In this document: positions 44,008-51,981 of the stretch, in pieces
Layout: the number at the start of each line of letters is the position of its first letter
Position numbering within the stretch: position 1 is the first letter of the stretch
IMG/VR virus record: IMGVR_UViG_3300027749_000039
Location: 126,603-190,602 of that record
Reading direction: 5' to 3' (one strand)
DNA: 64,000 nucleotides
Origin: a virus
Made by a program: the position numbers and the translations under genes
The notes under the pieces: model-generated
What the model saw: the letters and a program-made list of their open reading frames with translations, nothing else
Told to the model about the DNA's origin: nothing
The model's database searches: none

Positions 44008-44036
44008 ACTTTAATCCAATTTATCATATAAGTTAT

Positions 44037-44360
44037 ATGATAAATTGGATTAAAAAATTATTTAAGAAAAAAGAAGAAATCCCTGCTTCTGTGTCGTCCA
44101 TCACAGAATGGGTCGATGAAAAAGGTGTTCCGCACAAAAAATTTGTAATAGCAGTTGGTAATTCTTCAAAAGAAAAAGCCGAAGAACAAATTGGAAAATT
44201 AATTGCTTCTTATAAAGAAGATGTAGAATGGGATGATTCTATAGGCGAACTAAAAATCAATGGTGAAAAAAACTTACCTTATAACAAAACTATTTGGTTT
44301 CCTTCACCTGATACCGATAGTGGTGTAAAAATTGAAGAAATTAAATCAGATAAAAAATAA
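44037..44360 (+). CDS. Small protein resembling an internal segment of T4 gp20-like portal proteins
   Basis: KKFVIAVGNSSKEKAEEQIGKLIASYKEDVEWDDSIGELKINGEKNLPYNKTIWFPS parallels the gp20 F.IDVGNLPK.KAEQYL..IM..Y...YD..TGE...FWLP segment (recalled). Confidence 0.55.
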   Translation: MINWIKKLFKKKEEIPASVSSITEWVDEKGVPHKKFVIAVGNSSKEKAEEQIGKLIASYKEDVEWDDSIGELKINGEKNLPYNKTIWFPSPDTDSGVKIEEIKSDKK

Positions 44361-44378
44361 AAATATCTGTAAAATTAT

Positions 44379-44409
44379 TTTGTATAATCACAAATACTTC
44401 GTATCTTTG
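44379..44409 (+). promoter_or_regulatory. Bacteroidota-type promoter for the Asp/Pro/Gln tRNA-glnS unit
   Basis: TTTG-N19-TATCTTTG. Confidence 0.8.
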
Positions 44410-44483
44410 TGTAACAAAAGCAAAGAATAAATACTTAATTAAAGACAACAAAAAAGCATTTTTAAAATACAATATATACTATT

Positions 44484-44579
44484 ATGAAAAACATTCTAAA
44501 CATACAAAACCCTCAACAACCGCAAGTTGATGTCGATCAGGATCCTGATACGATGAGGACTAACCATGTTAGAATGTAA
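44484..44579 (+). CDS. Attenuator leader peptide L6: MKNILNIQNPQQPQVDVDQDPDTMRTNHVRM
   Basis: 5 Gln, 3 Pro, 4 Asp in codons 8-22. Confidence 0.88.
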   Translation: MKNILNIQNPQQPQVDVDQDPDTMRTNHVRM

Positions 44580-44602
44580 ATGAATTATATTACATTTTTA
44601 AT

Positions 44603-44635
44603 AGCCAGTTAGTCGAAAGATTAACTGGTTTTTTT
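44603..44635 (+). terminator. Intrinsic terminator of attenuator L6
   Basis: AGCCAGTTAGTC-GAAA-GATTAACTGGTT-TTTTT. Confidence 0.9.
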
Positions 44636-44659
44636 GTTTTATATAGCGAGAATTAGTAA

Positions 44660-44748
44660 GGTTACGGCGAATAATGGCTGGTTCGCTACTCTGTCACAGT
44701 AGTAAGTAGGTTAAAACCGAAAAGAGGGTTCGATTCCCTTCGTAACCG
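44660..44748 (+). tRNA. tRNA-Asp(GTC) with long variable arm
   Basis: CTACT-CTGTCAC-AGTAG; G73. Confidence 0.75.
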
Positions 44749-44753
44749 CAAAA

Positions 44754-44827
44754 GGCACCATATATCAATTGGTTAGATTTTCCGCCTGTCACATGGAAGG
44801 CTACGGGTTCGAGCCCCGTTGGTGTCG
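44754..44827 (+). tRNA. tRNA-Asp(GTC), second
   Basis: Loop CTGTCAC, imperfect stem; G73. Confidence 0.8.
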
Positions 44828-44832
44828 CAAAA

Positions 44833-44906
44833 GGTCTGTTAGTAGAAATGGATACAATATCTCCCTGTCACGGAGAAGGTTGCCGGATCGTACCCGGTAC
44901 AGACCG
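44833..44906 (+). tRNA. tRNA-Asp(GTC), third
   Basis: TCTCC-CTGTCAC-GGAGA; G73. Confidence 0.9.
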
Positions 44907-44911
44907 CTAAA

Positions 44912-44984
44912 CGAGTATGAAGTGTAACCAGGTTGCACACGAATTTTGGGAATTCGTAGAGACGTTCGAATCGTACATGCTCGA
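44912..44984 (+). tRNA. tRNA-Pro(TGG)
   Basis: CGAAT-TTTGGGA-ATTCG; C1:G72, A73; weak T stem. Confidence 0.8.
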
Positions 44985-45037
44985 CAAAAAATCACTGCTT
45001 CGATTAAACTTTCTCCGACAATTTTAATATATATCTT

Positions 45038-45967
45038 ATGGATATAATTAAAATTATAAATGAAAGTTTTTCCATTAATGATTTAGCCAAAAAATTATAT
45101 GGTTATTCTAATGGCAAGAGCAATAAAAAAGCAATAGAAGTTTTAAAACAAAACGGATTTGATATATCTTTTTTTGACGGAAAAAGTAAAAATAGAAAAT
45201 ATCAAAAAATAAAAATTATTTGTCCTATTTGTTTTGTGGAATTTGAAACAACTGAAAATGGTAAAAAAACATGTTCTTCTTCATGTTCTAATTCTTATTT
45301 TCAACACGGGAAAAATAATCCTGATTTTGATCAAGAAAAATATGAGGAAAGATATAAAAAAGTATCTAATACATTAAAAACTAATATTCCTTGGAATAAA
45401 GGCAAAAATGATAAGGCAAAAATAAAAACATGTCTAAATTGTAAAATTGAATTTGAACCTAAAACACACACACAGAAATATTGTTGCAAAAAATGCCAAT
45501 TTTCATGTAAAGAGTATAGAAAATTATTAAGTGACAATGTTAAAGAAAGAATAAAAAATGGAACACATAAAGGTTGGCAATCAAGAAATATTGAGAGTTA
45601 TCCTGAAAAATTCTTTAAAAAAGTATTAAAAAATAATGGTATTGAATATATACCAAATAAAACAATAATAAAAAAAGACTATAATATAGAAGGCAATGGT
45701 AATTATTTTTTAGATTTTTATATAAAAGAAGGAAATATAGATTTAGAAATAGACGGCAAGCAACATGATTATAGGGTCGAACATGATAATGAACGAGATA
45801 ACAATTTATCAAAGCATTTCAACATTTATAGAATAAAATGGCAGTCAATAAATAGCGAAACAGGAAAACAATATATAAAAAAAGAAATTAAAAAATTTAT
45901 AAAATATTATAACAAAATGAAAAACTTAACTTTACAACAACAGCAACAAATGATTAAACTAGATTGA
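45038..45967 (+). mobile_element. DUF559/Vsr-like homing endonuclease with Zn fingers; last 16 codons are the Gln leader
   Basis: YFLDFY...LEIDGKQHD..R....YRIKW; CPIC, CxxxC motifs. Confidence 0.8.
45917..45967 (+). CDS. Attenuator leader peptide L7: MKNLTLQQQQQMIKLD (in frame with the endonuclease ORF)
   Basis: CAA CAA CAG CAA CAA run, typical MKN start; terminator and three tRNA-Gln follow. Confidence 0.85.
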   Translation: MKNLTLQQQQQMIKLD

Positions 45968-45988
45968 TGGTATTGTATAGTTATGTAT

Positions 45989-46020
45989 AAACCTATCAGT
46001 CTAAACTGATAGGTTTTTTT
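45989..46020 (+). terminator. Intrinsic terminator of attenuator L7
   Basis: AAACCTATCAGT-CTAA-ACTGATAGGTTT-TTTT. Confidence 0.9.
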
Positions 46021-46022
46021 AT

Positions 46023-46108
46023 GCTCCTCTGGTGTAATTGGTTAACATACTTGATTTTGAGTCAAGGGACAGGTAATGCAAGTCAGGGTTCGAATCCTTG
46101 GAGGAGTA
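46023..46108 (+). tRNA. tRNA-Gln(TTG) with long variable arm
   Basis: CTTGA-TTTTGAG-TCAAG; A73. Confidence 0.75.
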
Positions 46109-46113
46109 CAAAT

Positions 46114-46185
46114 AGTCCAATAGTGTAACGGTTAGCACAACTCTCTTTGACAGAGTTAGTCTTGGTTCGAATCCAGGTTGAACTA
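46114..46185 (+). tRNA. tRNA-Gln(TTG), second
   Basis: ACTCT-CTTTGAC-AGAGT. Confidence 0.85.
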
Positions 46186-46191
46186 CTACAA

Positions 46192-46262
46192 TGTTCTATG
46201 ATGTAATGGTAGCATAAGAGCTTCTGATTCTCTTTGTATTGGTTCGAGTCCAATTAGAACAA
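46192..46262 (+). tRNA. tRNA-Gln(CTG)
   Basis: AGAG-C-TTCTGAT-T-CTCT. Confidence 0.82.
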
Positions 46263-46279
46263 CTAAAAATAATAATTTT

Positions 46280-47869
46280 ATGAATTTTATAGAAGAAAAA
46301 ATTATTGAAAAAGTAAATCGTGGAATTAAGCCGGTGCTTCGCTTTCCGCCCGAACCAAACGGAAAATCATTGCACTTGGGGCATGCCAAGTCAATGTGTT
46401 TAAATTTTGGATTGGCAGAGAAATATAATGGTGAATGTAATTTAAGGTTTGATGATACAAATCCTTCTGCTGAAAAAGCGGAATATGTAGATGCAATCAT
46501 TAATGATATAAAGTGGCTTGGATTTACTCCAACACGTATAGAACACACATCTAATTATTTTGAAATAATATTTGAATATGCGGTTAGATTAATTGAAAAA
46601 GGGTTAGCATATGTTGATGATTCTACATCAGAAGAAATTGCTAGTATGAAAGGAACTCTTAATGCACCTGGTATTGATTCACCATATAAATCAAGAACTA
46701 TTTCCGAAAACTTAGATTTATTTTATCGTATGAGAAATGGTGAATTTAATAATGGTAAAAAAACATTAAGATTAAATATTGACATGACTTCACCTAATAT
46801 GATATTAAGAGATCCAGTTATATATCGGATTATGCATGAAACACATCATAATACAGGTGATAAATGGTGTATATATCCTTTATATGATTTTGCGCATCCG
46901 ATATCTGATTATATTGAAAGTATATCTGATTCATTATGTACCTTGGAGTTTGAAGTTCATAGACCATTGTATAATTGGATATTAGAAAATTTAGATTTAA
47001 AATATCCGTTACCTGAGGAAACTGAGTTTGCTCGTTTAAATGTTTCTTATAATGTAATGAGTAAGAGGAAGTTAAAAACATTAGTAGATGAAAATTATGT
47101 AACAGATTGGGATGATCCAAGATTATTAACATTATCTGGATTAAGAAGAAAAGGATATACACCGACATCAATTAAATCATTTTGTGAAACAGTTGGTTAC
47201 ACTAAAAGAGATTCTTTGATTGATTTTAGACTATTAGAAGAGTGTTTACGTTCTGACTTAAATAAGTTAGCATTAAGATATATGGTCGTTTTAAATCCAC
47301 TTAAAATTACTATTATTAATTATAGTGGTGAAGAAAAATGTGTTATTGAAAATAATCCTGAAAATGTAGAAGATGGAATAAGAGAAGTTATTTTTACTAA
47401 GGAATTATTTATTGAAGCAGATGATTTTAGAGAAATCGCTAATAACAAATATCATAGATTAAAAATAGGTGGTGAAGTTAGATTAAAGGGAGCTTATATT
47501 ATAAAAGCAGAAGAAGTAGTAAAAGATGAATTAGGTAATATAATTGAAGTTAAATGTATTTATGATCCTACTACTAAATCAGGTGAATCTGATAGAAAAG
47601 TAAAGGGCACTATACATTGGGTATCTACTTCTTATAATAAAGAAATTATTGTAAATGAGTATGAAAATTTATTTACAGAAGAAATACCAGAAACTTTTGA
47701 TATTATCAAAAGTTTAATAATAAGTAAACCTGCAATAGCAGAATTAGCAATAGAAAATACTGTTATTAACAAAGCAGTTCAATTTATGAGGAATGGCTAC
47801 TTTACTTTAGATAAAGATGGTAGTTTTATAAAAACAGTGTCATTAAAAGATGGATTTAAAGAAAAATAA
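46280..47869 (+). CDS. glnS: Glutaminyl-tRNA synthetase
   Basis: RFPPEPNG.SLHLGHAKS, LRFDDTNP, SLCTLEF, VMSKRKL, beta-barrel KVKGTIHWVS. Confidence 0.96.
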   Translation: MNFIEEKIIEKVNRGIKPVLRFPPEPNGKSLHLGHAKSMCLNFGLAEKYNGECNLRFDDTNPSAEKAEYVDAIINDIKWLGFTPTRIEHTSNYFEIIFEYAVRLIEKGLAYVDDSTSEEIASMKGTLNAPGIDSPYKSRTISENLDLFYRMRNGEFNNGKKTLRLNIDMTSPNMILRDPVIYRIMHETHHNTGDKWCIYPLYDFAHPISDYIESISDSLCTLEFEVHRPLYNWILENLDLKYPLPEETEFARLNVSYNVMSKRKLKTLVDENYVTDWDDPRLLTLSGLRRKGYTPTSIKSFCETVGYTKRDSLIDFRLLEECLRSDLNKLALRYMVVLNPLKITIINYSGEEKCVIENNPENVEDGIREVIFTKELFIEADDFREIANNKYHRLKIGGEVRLKGAYIIKAEEVVKDELGNIIEVKCIYDPTTKSGESDRKVKGTIHWVSTSYNKEIIVNEYENLFTEEIPETFDIIKSLIISKPAIAELAIENTVINKAVQFMRNGYFTLDKDGSFIKTVSLKDGFKEK

Positions 47870-49025: not shown

Positions 49026-50121
49026 TAAATCGGGAGCAAAATTTAGCTCTATAGTTAGTATAGGTGAGAAAATTAAGAAAATAGAAAAAGAAACAGGTGA
49101 AGAATACCTCTATTTGAATAGAGGCGTTACTGATGTTTGTCAAATGGATTTAACAAATATTGTATCTAAAATTGATTTTAATAGCAAAGAAATACAACAT
49201 TATCCACCTAATTTAGGTATTAATTCGTTAAGGGAAAATATATCAAAAGAATATTTCCCTAATATAATTGATGTAGAAAAAAATATAAGTATAATTAACG
49301 GTGGTATGCCATCATTAGATTTATGTATCCAAATTTTGGATACTAAAAAAATATGGTTTCCAAAATTTTACTGGGGTAGCTATCAAAAAATGGCTCAGAT
49401 TCGTAAAAAATCTTATGATTTTTATGAATCATTATCCGATTTTAATTTATCCTTATTGAGTGAAGATGATTGTATATTCATTTGCTCACCATCAAATCCA
49501 ACAGGGTTATTAATAGAAAATGATTATTTATTAGAGATGATTAAAAAAATAACTGATACTGGTGCTATAATAATTTTTGATTCACCATACTATAAGTTAT
49601 TTTACAATGATAATTTTTTTGAAAGAGCATTACAAACAGGTGGCGATAATATTATATTATGTGAAAGTTTTTCTAAATGTTATGGATTAAGTGGTATTAG
49701 ATTAGGATTTATATGTTCTTTGCATAAGGAATTTAATGAGGAATTAAATATAAGGATGTTATATGAATTTAATGGGATATCAACAATACCACAATTATTA
49801 ATTAATAATTTAATTTCTACTGATGAAGGTAAAAAAATAATTAATAATTTTCAATCAGAAACAAAAAAACACATATTTGAAAATATAAATTATTTAAAAG
49901 AAAATAATTTATTAGCAGATGAAATATATAATGGTGAAATTCCGGTTGGTATATTTGCTATTATAAATAAAACGGAATTAGAACTTCTAAATAAAAAAAT
50001 AGGCTCCATTGGATTAGACAAGTTCGTTTATCACGACAAAGATACATGGTCATCTTATAGTAGAATATGTGTATCGGTAAATCATGATAGATTCGTAGCA
50101 TTTATGTTAGGTATTTTATAA
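49015..50121 (+). CDS. PLP-dependent aminotransferase class I/II
   Basis: CSPSNPTG, IFDSPY, SFSKCYGLSGIRLG. Confidence 0.9.
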   Translation: MKINKSGAKFSSIVSIGEKIKKIEKETGEEYLYLNRGVTDVCQMDLTNIVSKIDFNSKEIQHYPPNLGINSLRENISKEYFPNIIDVEKNISIINGGMPSLDLCIQILDTKKIWFPKFYWGSYQKMAQIRKKSYDFYESLSDFNLSLLSEDDCIFICSPSNPTGLLIENDYLLEMIKKITDTGAIIIFDSPYYKLFYNDNFFERALQTGGDNIILCESFSKCYGLSGIRLGFICSLHKEFNEELNIRMLYEFNGISTIPQLLINNLISTDEGKKIINNFQSETKKHIFENINYLKENNLLADEIYNGEIPVGIFAIINKTELELLNKKIGSIGLDKFVYHDKDTWSSYSRICVSVNHDRFVAFMLGIL

Positions 50122-50838
50122 TGAAAGTAGTTTGTATTAAAGAATATAAAGTAGCTGGTGAAATAAAAATTAATAAAGAAAATGTTTATACTTTGAAATA
50201 TAGTGTAAACACAGTAGCCGGAACCATCTATAGAATAGAAGGTGTTTGGTTTACTGAAGAAAATGATGGAAGTAATGAATACTTCTATGATTATTTTATA
50301 CCATTATCCGAATGGAGAGATAAACAGATAGATAGTATATTAAATGAGTAAAATGATGGTGTGTATAAGGAGTTTACGTTCCGAAGAACATAAAATAATT
50401 TATGAAGAAACCCATTTTTATAAAGAAGATGAGATATTGTTTGTAACTACTCGTCTTGAAAATGGTTCTGGTATATTCACCGCACAGTATTTTAATGAAA
50501 GTTTTATTTCATTATCGGAATGGAGAGAAAGACAAATTGATGATATACTAAATTAAACATTATTGGATTTCATATCTAAAATAGATATGAAATTAGTATT
50601 TGTTAATCCTGTATGGACAGATAGTGAAAAAAAATTCACATTAAATAAAATATATGATATATTTCTCGAAGGTAATGTTTGGAAAATAACTTGCGATAAT
50701 GGTGAAACAGCTATATATGGCGTCAATAAAACAATTGAAGATATTATACAACGAATAAGAACAAAAAAAAATCCACCATTTATTACACTTGCGGAATGGA
50801 GAGAAAAACAAATAGATAATATATTAAGCGATGAGTAA
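50121..50838 (+). CDS. Three tandem small proteins with the L(A/S)EWR(D/E)xQID motif (50121-50351, 50344-50556, 50563-50838)
   Basis: Shared C-terminal motif. Confidence 0.7.
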
Positions 50839-51670
50839 TTTAATTAAATGGTCGGGAAGCAAAAGTTCACAAGCTAAAAATATAATCAGTTTTTTTCCAA
50901 AAGAATTTAAAGTATATTACGAGCCTTTTGCTGGTGGTGGTTCTATTTTTATGGAATTATTACAAAGTGATATAAAGATAGAGCGTTATATTATTAGTGA
51001 TGTGAATAAAGAGTTAATTGAGGTTTATTTAACGATAAAGGAAAACCCTTATTATCTTATTCATACTTATAAGAAACACTACGATAATTTCAATAGTGGT
51101 GATATTCAGTATAGGAAAGATTACTTTGACAAAGTAAGAAATGAGTTTAATATATCAAAAAAACCAGAAGACTTTTATTGGATAATGAGAACTACCACAA
51201 ATGGTATGCCACGTTATAATAAAAAAGGTGAATTTAATAATTCTTGCCATTTTTCAAGACCTGGTATGAATCCAACTGAAGTTGAAAATAATGTAATGAA
51301 GTGGAGTCAAATTTTTTTTGAAAAAAGTGTTGAGTTTTATAACATAAGTTATGAACTATTATCATCTGGATTTTTAGTTGATAATGAAATTAGACAAGAT
51401 GATTTAATATATTGCGATCCACCATATGAAAATACCAAAGGTATGTATTTTGGTAATTTTAATAATCAAGACTTTATAAAATGGTTAAATACTATAAAAT
51501 CTAAATGGATATTATCTTATGATGGTAAAGTAAATGAAGATAAGGTAAACCATATAGCACCAAATTACAAAAGACATGAGTATTTAATATCGGGTAATTC
51601 TTCATTTAGAAGAGTTATTGGTAATAGTAATGATTCGATAATAAGTGAATCATTATATTTAAATTTCTAA
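50831..51670 (+). CDS. Dam-like (D12 class) DNA adenine methyltransferase
   Basis: IKWSGSKS, YEPFAGGGS, YCDPPY. Confidence 0.92.
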   Translation: MSNLIKWSGSKSSQAKNIISFFPKEFKVYYEPFAGGGSIFMELLQSDIKIERYIISDVNKELIEVYLTIKENPYYLIHTYKKHYDNFNSGDIQYRKDYFDKVRNEFNISKKPEDFYWIMRTTTNGMPRYNKKGEFNNSCHFSRPGMNPTEVENNVMKWSQIFFEKSVEFYNISYELLSSGFLVDNEIRQDDLIYCDPPYENTKGMYFGNFNNQDFIKWLNTIKSKWILSYDGKVNEDKVNHIAPNYKRHEYLISGNSSFRRVIGNSNDSIISESLYLNF

Positions 51671-51672
51671 CT

Positions 51673-51981
51673 ATGAAAAAAGGACAAAAAGTTATAGCTA
51701 AAACTAATATAGATATTAAAAATTGTTGGTTCATGGAAGATTGTTTAATCAAAAAAGATAACTTCTACATAATAGAAAATATATATTCTTCTGATATCTT
51801 AGATAAAGGTGAAGGTATTTTTTATTTAGGTAAAAAAATGGATATAATTAGAATTAATGGTTGTAATTTTCCACATGGAAAGAAACAAATAAATGAAAAG
51901 GATATTACAATTTTTTTTGAAGATTATTTTATATCATTAGCCGAGTGGCGTGATATACAAATAAACTCTATATTAGATTAA
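51673..51981 (+). CDS. Small protein with LAEWRDIQINSILD motif
   Basis: Motif family member. Confidence 0.7.
   Translation: MKKGQKVIAKTNIDIKNCWFMEDCLIKKDNFYIIENIYSSDILDKGEGIFYLGKKMDIIRINGCNFPHGKKQINEKDITIFFEDYFISLAEWRDIQINSILD

What the first reader, a model, noticed from the sequence alone, without database searches (positions are those of the whole stretch)
45917..47869. Attenuator L7: poly-Gln leader fused in frame to the end of a homing endonuclease, gating Gln tRNAs and glnS
Seen: the last 16 codons of ORF 45038 are MKNLTLQQQQQMIKLD, with the same MKN start as other leaders and both CAA and CAG codons. AGATTGATGGT (45961-71) pairs over 11 bp (one bulge) with ACCTATCAGTCT of the terminator. 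Gln TTG x2, Gln CTG and GlnRS follow. Inference: a second attenuator in series with L6. The endonuclease has captured the leader as its C-terminus, so ribosomes translating the nuclease would also read the sensor codons.
Basis: partly seen in the sequence, partly recalled or inferred. Interest (0 to 1): 0.88.

Follow-up and report, generated by a model that had tools for sequence, protein, structure and literature searches.

The report
Glutamine-sensing attenuator gating phage tRNA-Gln genes
A giant phage of Bacteroidota-type hosts puts its three glutamine tRNA genes and its glutaminyl-tRNA synthetase behind a 16-codon "test" gene with five glutamine codons and a switchable transcription stop, so it probably makes them only when ribosomes read glutamine codons slowly; here a mobile nuclease gene has landed just upstream and now reads straight into that test gene.

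Summary
ORF 45038-45967 ends in MKNLTLQQQQQMIKLD. A strong terminator (45989-46016 plus T-run) lies 6 nt before tRNA-Gln x3 and glnS. Segment 45960-45971, which overlaps the TGA stop, pairs 12 bp with the terminator's 5' arm (-14.1 kcal/mol, p=0.002).

Eleven related huge-phage loci without the nuclease gene keep a free-standing poly-Gln leader, terminator and tRNA-Gln array, usually followed by glnS. The antiterminator pairing is kept in four unrelated sequence versions. Constraint folds give the antiterminator with a ribosome stalled on Gln codons, and the terminator with a ribosome at the stop, in 13 of 13 loci.

The nuclease is a DUF559 ORF. Its homologs in at least 10 other phage contigs sit just downstream of tRNA-Pro(UGG) and end 1-16 residues after their last conserved motif. 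Only this phage and its closest relative read on into the leader, so the fusion is real but lineage-specific.

No promoter motif lies between L6 and L7, so the two gates are in series.

I found no publication on leader-peptide attenuation of tRNA genes. This scan has noted the same phenomenon on other phage DNA. There is no expression data; function is inferred.

The parts
44372..44409 (+). Bacteroidota-type promoter (TTTG ... TAnnTTTG) of the transcription unit that holds L6, L7 and glnS
   Evidence: TATCTTTG at 44402-44409 with upstream TTTTG. It matches the consensus seen before the other leaders. No further such motif on the + strand until 48202.
44484..44630 (+). Upstream attenuator L6: Asp/Pro/Gln-rich leader (44484-44579) and its terminator (44603-44630)
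   Evidence: Leader and terminator. Homologous PQPQDQD-type leaders occur in L001, L002 and L015. This is the first gate in series.
44660..44983 (+). tRNA-Asp(GUC) x3 and tRNA-Pro(UGG) (44913-44983)
   Evidence: ARAGORN found the Asp tRNAs. The Pro tRNA was found only by Rfam (tRNA model, 34.5 bits, gathering score 29). I read its anticodon from the sequence.
45038..45916 (+). DUF559-type mobile endonuclease ORF, in frame with the leader and with no stop of its own
   Evidence: PF04480 E=1.2e-6, above the cutoff. It is 78% identical to the ortholog at the same site in L006. The site is empty in 11 relatives. Homologs elsewhere lie next to tRNA-Pro(UGG) and end 1-16 aa after the KF(I/L)xFYN motif.
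45917..45967 (+). Leader peptide ORF L7, MKNLTLQQQQQMIKLD
   Evidence: Free-standing homologs occur in 11 loci.
45935..45949 (+). Sensor codons: CAA CAA CAG CAA CAA
   Evidence: Read directly. They are cognate to anticodons UUG x2 and CUG downstream. There are 10 nt between the last Gln codon and the first antiterminator pair, and 8-13 nt in all 13 loci.
45960..45971 (+). Antiterminator 5' strand (segment 2), overlapping the TGA stop at 45965-45967
   Evidence: RNAduplex -14.1 kcal/mol, p=0.002. It forms in the nascent fold with a ribosome stalled on Gln. Cognate pairing beats swapped pairing.
45989..46022 (+). Intrinsic terminator: 12-bp stem, CTAA loop, T-run. The 5' arm (45991-46003) is segment 3
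   Evidence: Only about 6 nt separate the T-run from the first tRNA, so there is no room for a promoter.
46023..46263 (+). Gated tRNA genes: Gln(UUG, 87 nt with a long extra arm), Gln(UUG), Gln(CUG)
46280..47869 (+). Gated glnS (glutaminyl-tRNA synthetase, 529 aa)
   Evidence: PF00749, PF03950 and PF20974. HLGH and MSK motifs are present in the translation. No terminator was called between the last tRNA and the ATG.

Best explanation
L7 is a ribosome-mediated (leader-peptide) transcription attenuator that senses the supply of charged tRNA-Gln. Host RNA polymerase starts at the promoter near 44402 and must first pass attenuator L6. It then transcribes the Asp and Pro tRNAs and the nuclease ORF, and reaches the 16-codon leader. 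If Gln-tRNA(Gln) is plentiful, the ribosome runs to the TGA at 45965. There it covers segment 45960-45971, the terminator hairpin 45989-46016 folds, and transcription stops 6 nt before the first tRNA-Gln. If Gln-tRNA(Gln) is scarce, the ribosome stalls on the five CAA/CAG codons about 10 nt or more upstream. Segment 45960-45971 is then free to pair with the terminator's 5' arm, the hairpin cannot form, and polymerase reads on into three tRNA-Gln genes and glnS. The nuclease gene is a mobile element that inserts just downstream of tRNA-Pro(UGG). In this phage clade that spot is the short spacer in front of the Gln leader, so its reading frame now runs into the leader. Ribosomes that translate the nuclease therefore end on the same sensor codons and stop codon. 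Shown: the anatomy, the conservation, the alternative pairings and their covariation, and the series arrangement. Inferred: the in vivo response to Gln-tRNA, transcription-translation coupling in the host, and any sensing role for nuclease-translating ribosomes.
For: Architecture: leader, terminator, tRNAs and glnS lie with no promoter motif and only 6 nt between the T-run and the first tRNA.

Conservation: 13 loci from different metagenomes, including the complete 635- and 642-kb genomes LR745206 and LR756502, carry an intact ATG-to-stop ORF with 4-7 Gln codons before a terminator and tRNA-Gln genes. CAA/CAG vary synonymously, and coding-region indels are multiples of three.

Switch: in all 13 loci the best duplex between the post-Gln segment and the terminator 5' arm lies at or next to the stop codon. 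Energies are -9.6 to -15.6 kcal/mol, z is -1.8 to -4.7, and 12 of 13 have p<=0.025. Four unrelated sequence versions (window type, L101, L012, L016) each prefer their own partner. The diagonal sum of -53.4 is the best of 24 permutations; the next best is -43.1. Constraint folds give the antiterminator with a stalled ribosome in 13/13 loci, the terminator with a ribosome at the stop in 13/13, and an upstream 1:2 helix plus terminator in the free RNA. The spacing from the last Gln codon to the first antiterminator pair is 8-13 nt in all loci.

Context: six other leaders in the window precede tRNA arrays, and their amino-acid content matches the tRNAs behind them. The true assignment is the best of 5040 permutations. 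All six have antiterminator candidates.

Control: 78 other (GlnRS 49-56% identical, tRNA-poor, probably bacterial) glnS loci have no such leader. No Rfam family other than tRNA matches 44400-46300, so there is no T-box and no glutamine riboswitch.
Against: There are no expression, Term-seq or Ribo-seq data. In the window's own nascent transcript the antiterminator is already the minimum-energy fold without any ribosome (-17.7 against about -8.6 kcal/mol for the 1:2 helix). The ribosome-free default may therefore be read-through rather than termination, which departs from the trp paradigm. Transcription-translation coupling in the presumed Bacteroidota host is assumed. All folding evidence is thermodynamic, not kinetic. 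Most relatives belong to one sequence class, so the number of independent confirmations is about four, not thirteen.
Confidence: 0.8

Rival explanations
1. The element is an attenuator, but it reports general translation status rather than glutamine specifically. Any slowing or absence of ribosomes, for example after host shut-off or ribosome-targeting defence, would open it. The Gln run would be only one of several ways to slow the ribosome.
For: In the window and in 10 of 13 loci the ribosome-free nascent RNA already prefers the antiterminator, so absence of translation could also give read-through. L6 upstream is multivalent.
Against: The Gln run is the one conserved coding feature across four otherwise unrelated leader versions. 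Each of the seven leaders in the window is enriched in exactly the amino acids of its own tRNA array (best of 5040 permutations). A non-specific sensor would not need that.
Confidence: 0.1
2. The hairpin is simply the terminator of the nuclease gene, or an RNA-processing or stability hairpin. The QQQQQ tail is part of the nuclease, and the tRNA-Gln genes are expressed constitutively by leaky read-through or from an unrecognised promoter.
For: The leader is physically the C-terminus of ORF 45038-45967. Promoter detection relied on a motif scan only.
Against: Eleven relatives have the same leader and terminator with no nuclease gene upstream. Thirteen nuclease homologs lack the tail. Antiterminator complementarity is significant and covaries. 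Only 6 nt lie between the T-run and the tRNA.
Confidence: 0.04
3. The CAA repeat and its flanks act as an untranslated RNA element, such as a protein- or sRNA-binding site or an unstructured enhancer, and the open reading frame is incidental.
For: CAA repeats are low-complexity. In several relatives they take part in the upstream 1:2 helix, pairing with a conserved TATTGT motif.
Against: In all 13 loci an ATG sets the frame that reads the repeat as Gln, not Asn or Thr. A stop codon lies in or next to the antiterminator. Indels are in threes and CAA/CAG alternate. Sister leaders in the same window use entirely different codon sets that track their tRNAs.
Confidence: 0.04

Closest known systems
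Classical leader-peptide attenuators of aminoacyl-tRNA synthetase genes: pheST (pheM leader) in gamma-proteobacteria; candidate trpS and leuS attenuators in Streptomyces (PMC1262725)
   Same: A short ORF with a run of cognate codons, then alternative antiterminator and terminator hairpins, then a synthetase gene for the same amino acid. Sensing is by ribosome position.
   Different: Here the first gated genes are tRNA genes (three tRNA-Gln), with glnS behind them. The element is phage-encoded and uses Bacteroidota-type promoters with no Shine-Dalgarno. It is wired in series behind a second, multivalent attenuator, and its leader is fused to a mobile nuclease ORF. I know of no glutamine leader attenuator.
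trpL / hisL / pheL attenuators of amino-acid biosynthetic operons (for example PMC3082878 for pheL)
   Same: Four-segment logic: regulatory codons in or before segment 1, a stop codon near segment 2, and 2:3 against 3:4 pairing. The free RNA folds as 1:2 plus 3:4.
   Different: The output is translation hardware (tRNAs and a synthetase), not biosynthetic enzymes. In the window's copy the 1:2 helix is weak, so the ribosome-free default may differ.
T-box riboswitches (Firmicutes aaRS genes)
   Same: The physiological input is the charging state of one tRNA species, and the output is a synthetase gene, through terminator/antiterminator choice.
   Different: A T-box binds uncharged tRNA directly and needs no translation. 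No T-box or other Rfam family matches here, and the sensor is a translated ORF.
Free-standing homing endonuclease genes inside phage tRNA clusters, such as T4 segB (from my own knowledge, not checked here)
   Same: A mobile nuclease ORF sits between tRNA genes of a large phage and is present or absent among relatives.
   Different: This nuclease carries a DUF559 (Vsr-like) domain rather than GIY-YIG. It is consistently placed after tRNA-Pro(UGG). In this lineage it has no stop codon of its own and ends in a regulatory leader peptide.

Membership tests
Ribosome-mediated leader-peptide transcription attenuator | Short ORF upstream of the regulated genes with a run of codons cognate to what is regulated | tested here: met
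   16 codons, 5 consecutive Gln codons, followed by tRNA-Gln x3 and glnS. The same holds in 12 related loci.
Ribosome-mediated leader-peptide transcription attenuator | Intrinsic terminator between the leader and the regulated genes, with no promoter after it | tested here: met
   12-bp stem plus T7 at 45989-46022. It lies 6 nt from the tRNA. No TAnnTTTG motif occurs between 44402 and 48202.
Ribosome-mediated leader-peptide transcription attenuator | Antiterminator that excludes the terminator, masked by a ribosome at the stop codon but free when the ribosome stalls at the regulatory codons | tested here: met
   -14.1 kcal/mol, p=0.002. Constraint folds agree in 13/13 loci. Spacing is 8-13 nt. 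This is computational only.
Ribosome-mediated leader-peptide transcription attenuator | Pairings kept by compensatory change in relatives | tested here: met
   Four unrelated antiterminator/terminator sequence pairs each prefer their cognate partner. The diagonal is the best of 24 permutations. A column-wise count could not be made because the MAFFT alignment misplaced the variable spacers.
Ribosome-mediated leader-peptide transcription attenuator | Anti-antiterminator (1:2) or pause hairpin that gives termination when the leader is not translated | tested here: inconclusive
   The free full-length RNA folds as an upstream helix plus terminator in 13/13 loci. In the nascent RNA without a ribosome, the antiterminator wins in 10/13 loci, including the window.
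Ribosome-mediated leader-peptide transcription attenuator | Read-through responds to the charged cognate tRNA level | not testable with these tools
Homing endonuclease gene (free-standing) | Nuclease domain | tested here: met
   PF04480 DUF559, E=1.2e-6, 28.8 bits against a cutoff of 20.6, residues 221-277. There is a weak PHROG 'HNH endonuclease' hit at E=1e-4 and no solved relative by sequence.
Homing endonuclease gene (free-standing) | Sporadic presence at an otherwise conserved site, and a recurrent insertion context | tested here: met
   The ORF is present in the window and L006 and absent from 11 relatives with the same flanks. At least 10 of 13 IMG/VR homologs and LR756501 lie 50-150 nt downstream of tRNA-Pro(UGG).
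Homing endonuclease gene (free-standing) | Site-specific cleavage of the empty allele and gene conversion | not testable with these tools
   Needs an assay.
T-box or glutamine riboswitch | Match to the family's covariance model | tested here: not met
   cmscan of 44400-46300 at E<=1 returned only tRNAs and one chance lncRNA hit.

The most novel reading that the evidence does not exclude
The huge phage runs a demand-driven supply network for translation parts. A multivalent gate (L6: Asp/Pro/Gln) is followed by a Gln-only gate (L7). Asp or Pro shortage would then yield only the Asp and Pro tRNAs, while Gln shortage opens both gates and adds tRNA-Gln and GlnRS. This could be a built-in answer to host tRNA depletion or anticodon-nuclease defence. 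The selfish nuclease gene that homed next to tRNA-Pro has been absorbed into the circuit. Its expression is conditional on L6, and its own translating ribosomes arrive already coupled to the polymerase and serve as the sensing ribosomes of L7.
Probability: 0.2. Interest if true: 0.9.

Novelty: new variant of a known kind. Interest (0 to 1): 0.8.

Why it matters
Leader-peptide attenuation is textbook for amino-acid operons and for a few synthetase genes. I found no published case where it gates tRNA genes, and none in a phage.

If it works as read, huge phages do not simply carry spare tRNAs. They measure, codon family by codon family, whether the infected cell can still decode, and they switch on the matching tRNAs and synthetase only on demand. 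That would change how phage tRNA arrays are interpreted: as regulated compensation for host shut-off or tRNA-targeting defence, rather than constitutive codon-usage tuning.

It also gives compact, portable sensors of charged-tRNA levels that work without a Shine-Dalgarno.

The locus further shows a mobile nuclease gene that inserted into a regulatory spacer without destroying the switch, by becoming translationally continuous with it. The two gates in series make the Gln genes depend on both L6 and L7.

Tried and rejected

2. RNAalifold on a MAFFT alignment of the truncated antiterminator region predicted no pairs. MAFFT left-justified the variable spacer and misplaced the 3' partners in the window, L006 and L001. 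I used per-locus duplex energies, shuffles and a cross-locus swap instead.

3. My first automatic terminator parse merged an upstream hairpin in four loci and gave meaningless pairings. It was corrected.

4. A metagenome scan with the GlnRS profile returned 80 loci, but only two were phage-like (L017, L018). The rest have GlnRS 49-56% identical, carry few or no tRNAs and are probably bacterial; they served as negative controls.

5. I tested whether a CAG codon in the leader tracks the presence of tRNA-Gln(CUG). All 6 loci with that tRNA have CAG, but so do 4 of 7 without it. This is a trend only and I do not claim it.

6. I looked for a remnant of the native 5' UTR in the last nuclease codons (AAATATTA...). 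The similarity is ambiguous in AT-rich sequence, and the residues also align with the nuclease homolog of LR756501, so I make no claim about the exact 3' junction.

7. Sequence search of solved structures gave nothing meaningful for the nuclease.

8. Sigma-70 consensus promoter scans were uninformative (135 found against 129 expected). The Bacteroidota-type motif was used instead.
Full report
**Observation.** ORF 45038-45967 (309 aa) ends MKNLTLQQQQQMIKLD. The internal ATG is at 45917, the Gln codons CAA CAA CAG CAA CAA lie at 45935-45949, and the TGA is at 45965-45967. A 12-bp hairpin with a T7 tail occupies 45989-46022. It is followed after about 6 nt by tRNA-Gln(UUG), tRNA-Gln(UUG) and tRNA-Gln(CUG) at 46023-46263, and then by a complete GlnRS gene at 46280-47869 (Pfam E=1e-97). 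The proposed pairing of 45961-45971 with 45991-46002 is real. RNAduplex extends it to 12 bp (one G-U, one bulged U) at -14.1 kcal/mol. That is as stable as the terminator hairpin itself, with z=-4.0 and p=0.002 against 1000 shuffles.

**What the window is.** It is the last 64 kb of a 190.6-kb IMG/VR viral contig. It has 28.7% G+C and 45 tRNA genes, all on the + strand. Its nearest database relatives are the 635-642-kb uncultured phage genomes LR745206 and LR756502, and more distantly LR756501 and the Lak phages. These belong to the 'Mahaphage' clade, predicted to infect Bacteroidetes (PMC7162821). In line with that, the strong promoters in the window have the Bacteroidota form TTTG...TAnnTTTG, and the leaders lack Shine-Dalgarno sequences.

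**The element is one of a bank.** Seven strong terminators each lie 8-29 nt upstream of a tRNA array. Each is preceded by a short ATG-AAA ORF. The amino-acid content of each leader matches the tRNAs behind it: H/F/W/K, S/R, Y/E/G/A, N/I/R/T/L/V/C, L/M, D/P and Q. The true leader-to-array assignment scores best among all 5040 permutations. All seven leaders have a candidate antiterminator in their last codons, and five are individually significant. L7 is therefore not an isolated coincidence.

They do. Using GlnRS as an anchor and one DNA pattern, I collected loci from LR756502 and LR745206, nine further IMG/VR contigs and one ENA assembly. Eleven endonuclease-free loci carry an intact small ORF with 4-7 Gln codons, a terminator and tRNA-Gln genes, followed by glnS where the fetched DNA reaches that far. 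Examples are MTTSFQQQQQQQINRTD, MTTTQQIQQQQINQTD, MRTTTQYQQQQQINPTD, MNTLFTQQQQLNLRKLKLD, MVNITINIQQQQQQQTLNKGSGIALS and MKNLSNNIMIQQQQQITV. CAA and CAG alternate, and indels in the coding part are multiples of three. In every case the ATG selects the frame that reads the CAA repeat as Gln. By contrast, 78 other glnS loci (GlnRS 49-56% identical, few or no tRNAs, probably bacterial) have no tRNA-Gln upstream and no poly-Gln leader.

**The RNA switch.** In all 13 loci the best duplex between the stretch after the Gln run and the terminator's 5' arm falls on or next to the leader's stop codon. Energies are -9.6 to -15.6 kcal/mol and z is -1.8 to -4.7. Most loci share one version, AGATTGA pairing with TCAATCT (TCAGTCT in the window). 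L101 (CTGATTGGG with CCCAATCAG), L012 and L016 use unrelated sequences. In a swap test each of the four versions prefers its own partner (-14.1, -15.0, -10.6, -13.7, against -3.3 to -10.3 for non-cognate pairs). The cognate arrangement is the best of 24 permutations, at -53.4 against -43.1 for the next best. This is covariation at the level of whole helices.

Constraint folding supports the same picture. With a ribosome footprint on the Gln codons, the nascent RNA forms the antiterminator in 13/13 loci. With the footprint on the stop codon, the terminator forms in 13/13. The free full-length RNA forms an upstream helix plus the terminator in 13/13. The gap between the last Gln codon and the first antiterminator pair is 8-13 nt everywhere. 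That is about the 3' reach of a stalled ribosome (from my own knowledge of ribosome footprints).

One departure from the trp model: without a ribosome, the nascent RNA of the window and of nine other loci already prefers the antiterminator. The untranslated default may therefore be read-through.

**Series arrangement.** No Bacteroidota-type promoter motif lies between 44402 (the L6 promoter) and 48202. The order is promoter, L6 leader (rich in Asp, Pro and also Gln), terminator, tRNA-Asp x3, tRNA-Pro(UGG), nuclease ORF, L7, tRNA-Gln x3, glnS. The tRNA-Pro at 44913-44983 was missed by ARAGORN and found by Rfam. In five relatives the Gln leader follows tRNA-Pro after only about 33 nt with no promoter, which is the same series layout. 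In five others it has its own promoter. The logic that follows is that Asp or Pro shortage opens L6 only, whereas Gln shortage opens both gates. This is inference.

**The nuclease and the fusion.** The ORF has a DUF559 domain above Pfam's cutoff. It has an ortholog with 78% identity at the same place in L006, the closest relative, and that copy is also in frame with its leader...YYKK|MKTLTSQQQQLFKPD. Thirteen more distant homologs in IMG/VR contigs (38-57% identity, 11 distinct sequences) and one in LR756501 almost all lie inside tRNA arrays. At least ten sit 50-150 nt downstream of a tRNA-Pro(UGG). They end 1-16 residues after the shared KF(I/L)xFYN motif, and none has a Gln tail.

This supports a mobile nuclease that homes next to tRNA-Pro(UGG). 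In this clade that position is the spacer in front of the Gln leader, which explains the fusion. Leader, antiterminator and terminator stay intact in both fused genomes despite their divergence (GlnRS 69% identical). The terminator stems differ between them through changes on both arms. The switch has therefore been kept since the insertion. An in-frame junction by chance is not improbable (about one in three), and the two fused genomes represent one event. A selected role for the fusion is therefore not shown. At another relative, L011, a GIY-YIG endonuclease occupies the spot and no leader or terminator remains.

**Comparison with the known.** The logic is that of trpL, hisL and pheL. The closest target is the leader-peptide attenuation of synthetase genes: pheST in gamma-proteobacteria, and candidate trpS and leuS attenuators in Streptomyces (PMC1262725). 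No T-box or glutamine riboswitch model matches. Five full-text searches, and a reading of the huge-phage paper, found no description of leader-peptide attenuation of tRNA genes or of phage tRNA arrays. Absence from this library is not proof of absence. Notes of this scan record the same phenomenon on other phage genomes, including another Gln leader. I did not test those.

**Verdict.** This is a real, conserved, probably functional glutamine-sensing attenuator. It is a new variant of a known mechanism, applied to tRNA genes and glnS of a huge phage, and placed in series behind a multivalent attenuator. In this lineage it is translationally fused to a tRNA-Pro-associated mobile nuclease gene. 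Function rests on comparative and folding evidence only.

Noticed in passing
window 44913-44983: tRNA-Pro(UGG) missed by ARAGORN but found by the Rfam tRNA model (34.5 bits, gathering score 29). It completes the Asp/Pro set named by the L6 leader, and it is the gene next to which the nuclease family inserts.
   Followed up: partly
window 46023-46109 and 44660-44749: tRNA-Gln(UUG) of 87 nt and tRNA-Asp(GUC) of 90 nt carry long extra arms, which are normally confined to Leu, Ser and Tyr. An 82-86-nt tRNA-Gln(UUG) recurs in L001, L002, L006, L008, L012 and L015.
   Followed up: partly
L104-L116, L004, L003: The DUF559 nuclease family lies almost always inside phage tRNA arrays, directly downstream of tRNA-Pro(UGG), in at least 10 unrelated IMG/VR contigs and in LR756501. 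In Lak-A1 it lies just upstream of one. This suggests a homing site in or beside that tRNA gene.
   Followed up: partly
L011 1753-2529: A GIY-YIG homing endonuclease (PHROG 314, E=4e-34) sits directly before the tRNA-Gln genes of this relative. No poly-Gln leader or terminator remains, an apparent loss of the attenuator.
   Followed up: partly
window, e.g. 2791, 6751, 16005, 31115, 34372, 38363, 41135, 44402, 53840: About 18 copies of a strong shared promoter-like consensus (ATTTTG, about 19 nt, CGTAnnTTTG) of Bacteroidota type. Several stand about 80 nt before a leader ATG.
   Followed up: partly
window 45972-45984 and the same place in relatives: A conserved TATTGTYTAAA motif lies between the leader stop and the terminator in most relatives. 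In folds it pairs with ACAAYA in the early leader or Gln run and forms the 1:2 helix.
   Followed up: partly
window 50121-51981: Four small neighbouring ORFs (70-102 aa) share a C-terminal motif of the form LSEWR-x-KQID-x-IL. They look like a tandem paralog family of unknown function.
   Followed up: no
window 44010-44054: A 20-bp near-perfect AT-rich palindrome at the junction of two small ORFs.
   Followed up: no
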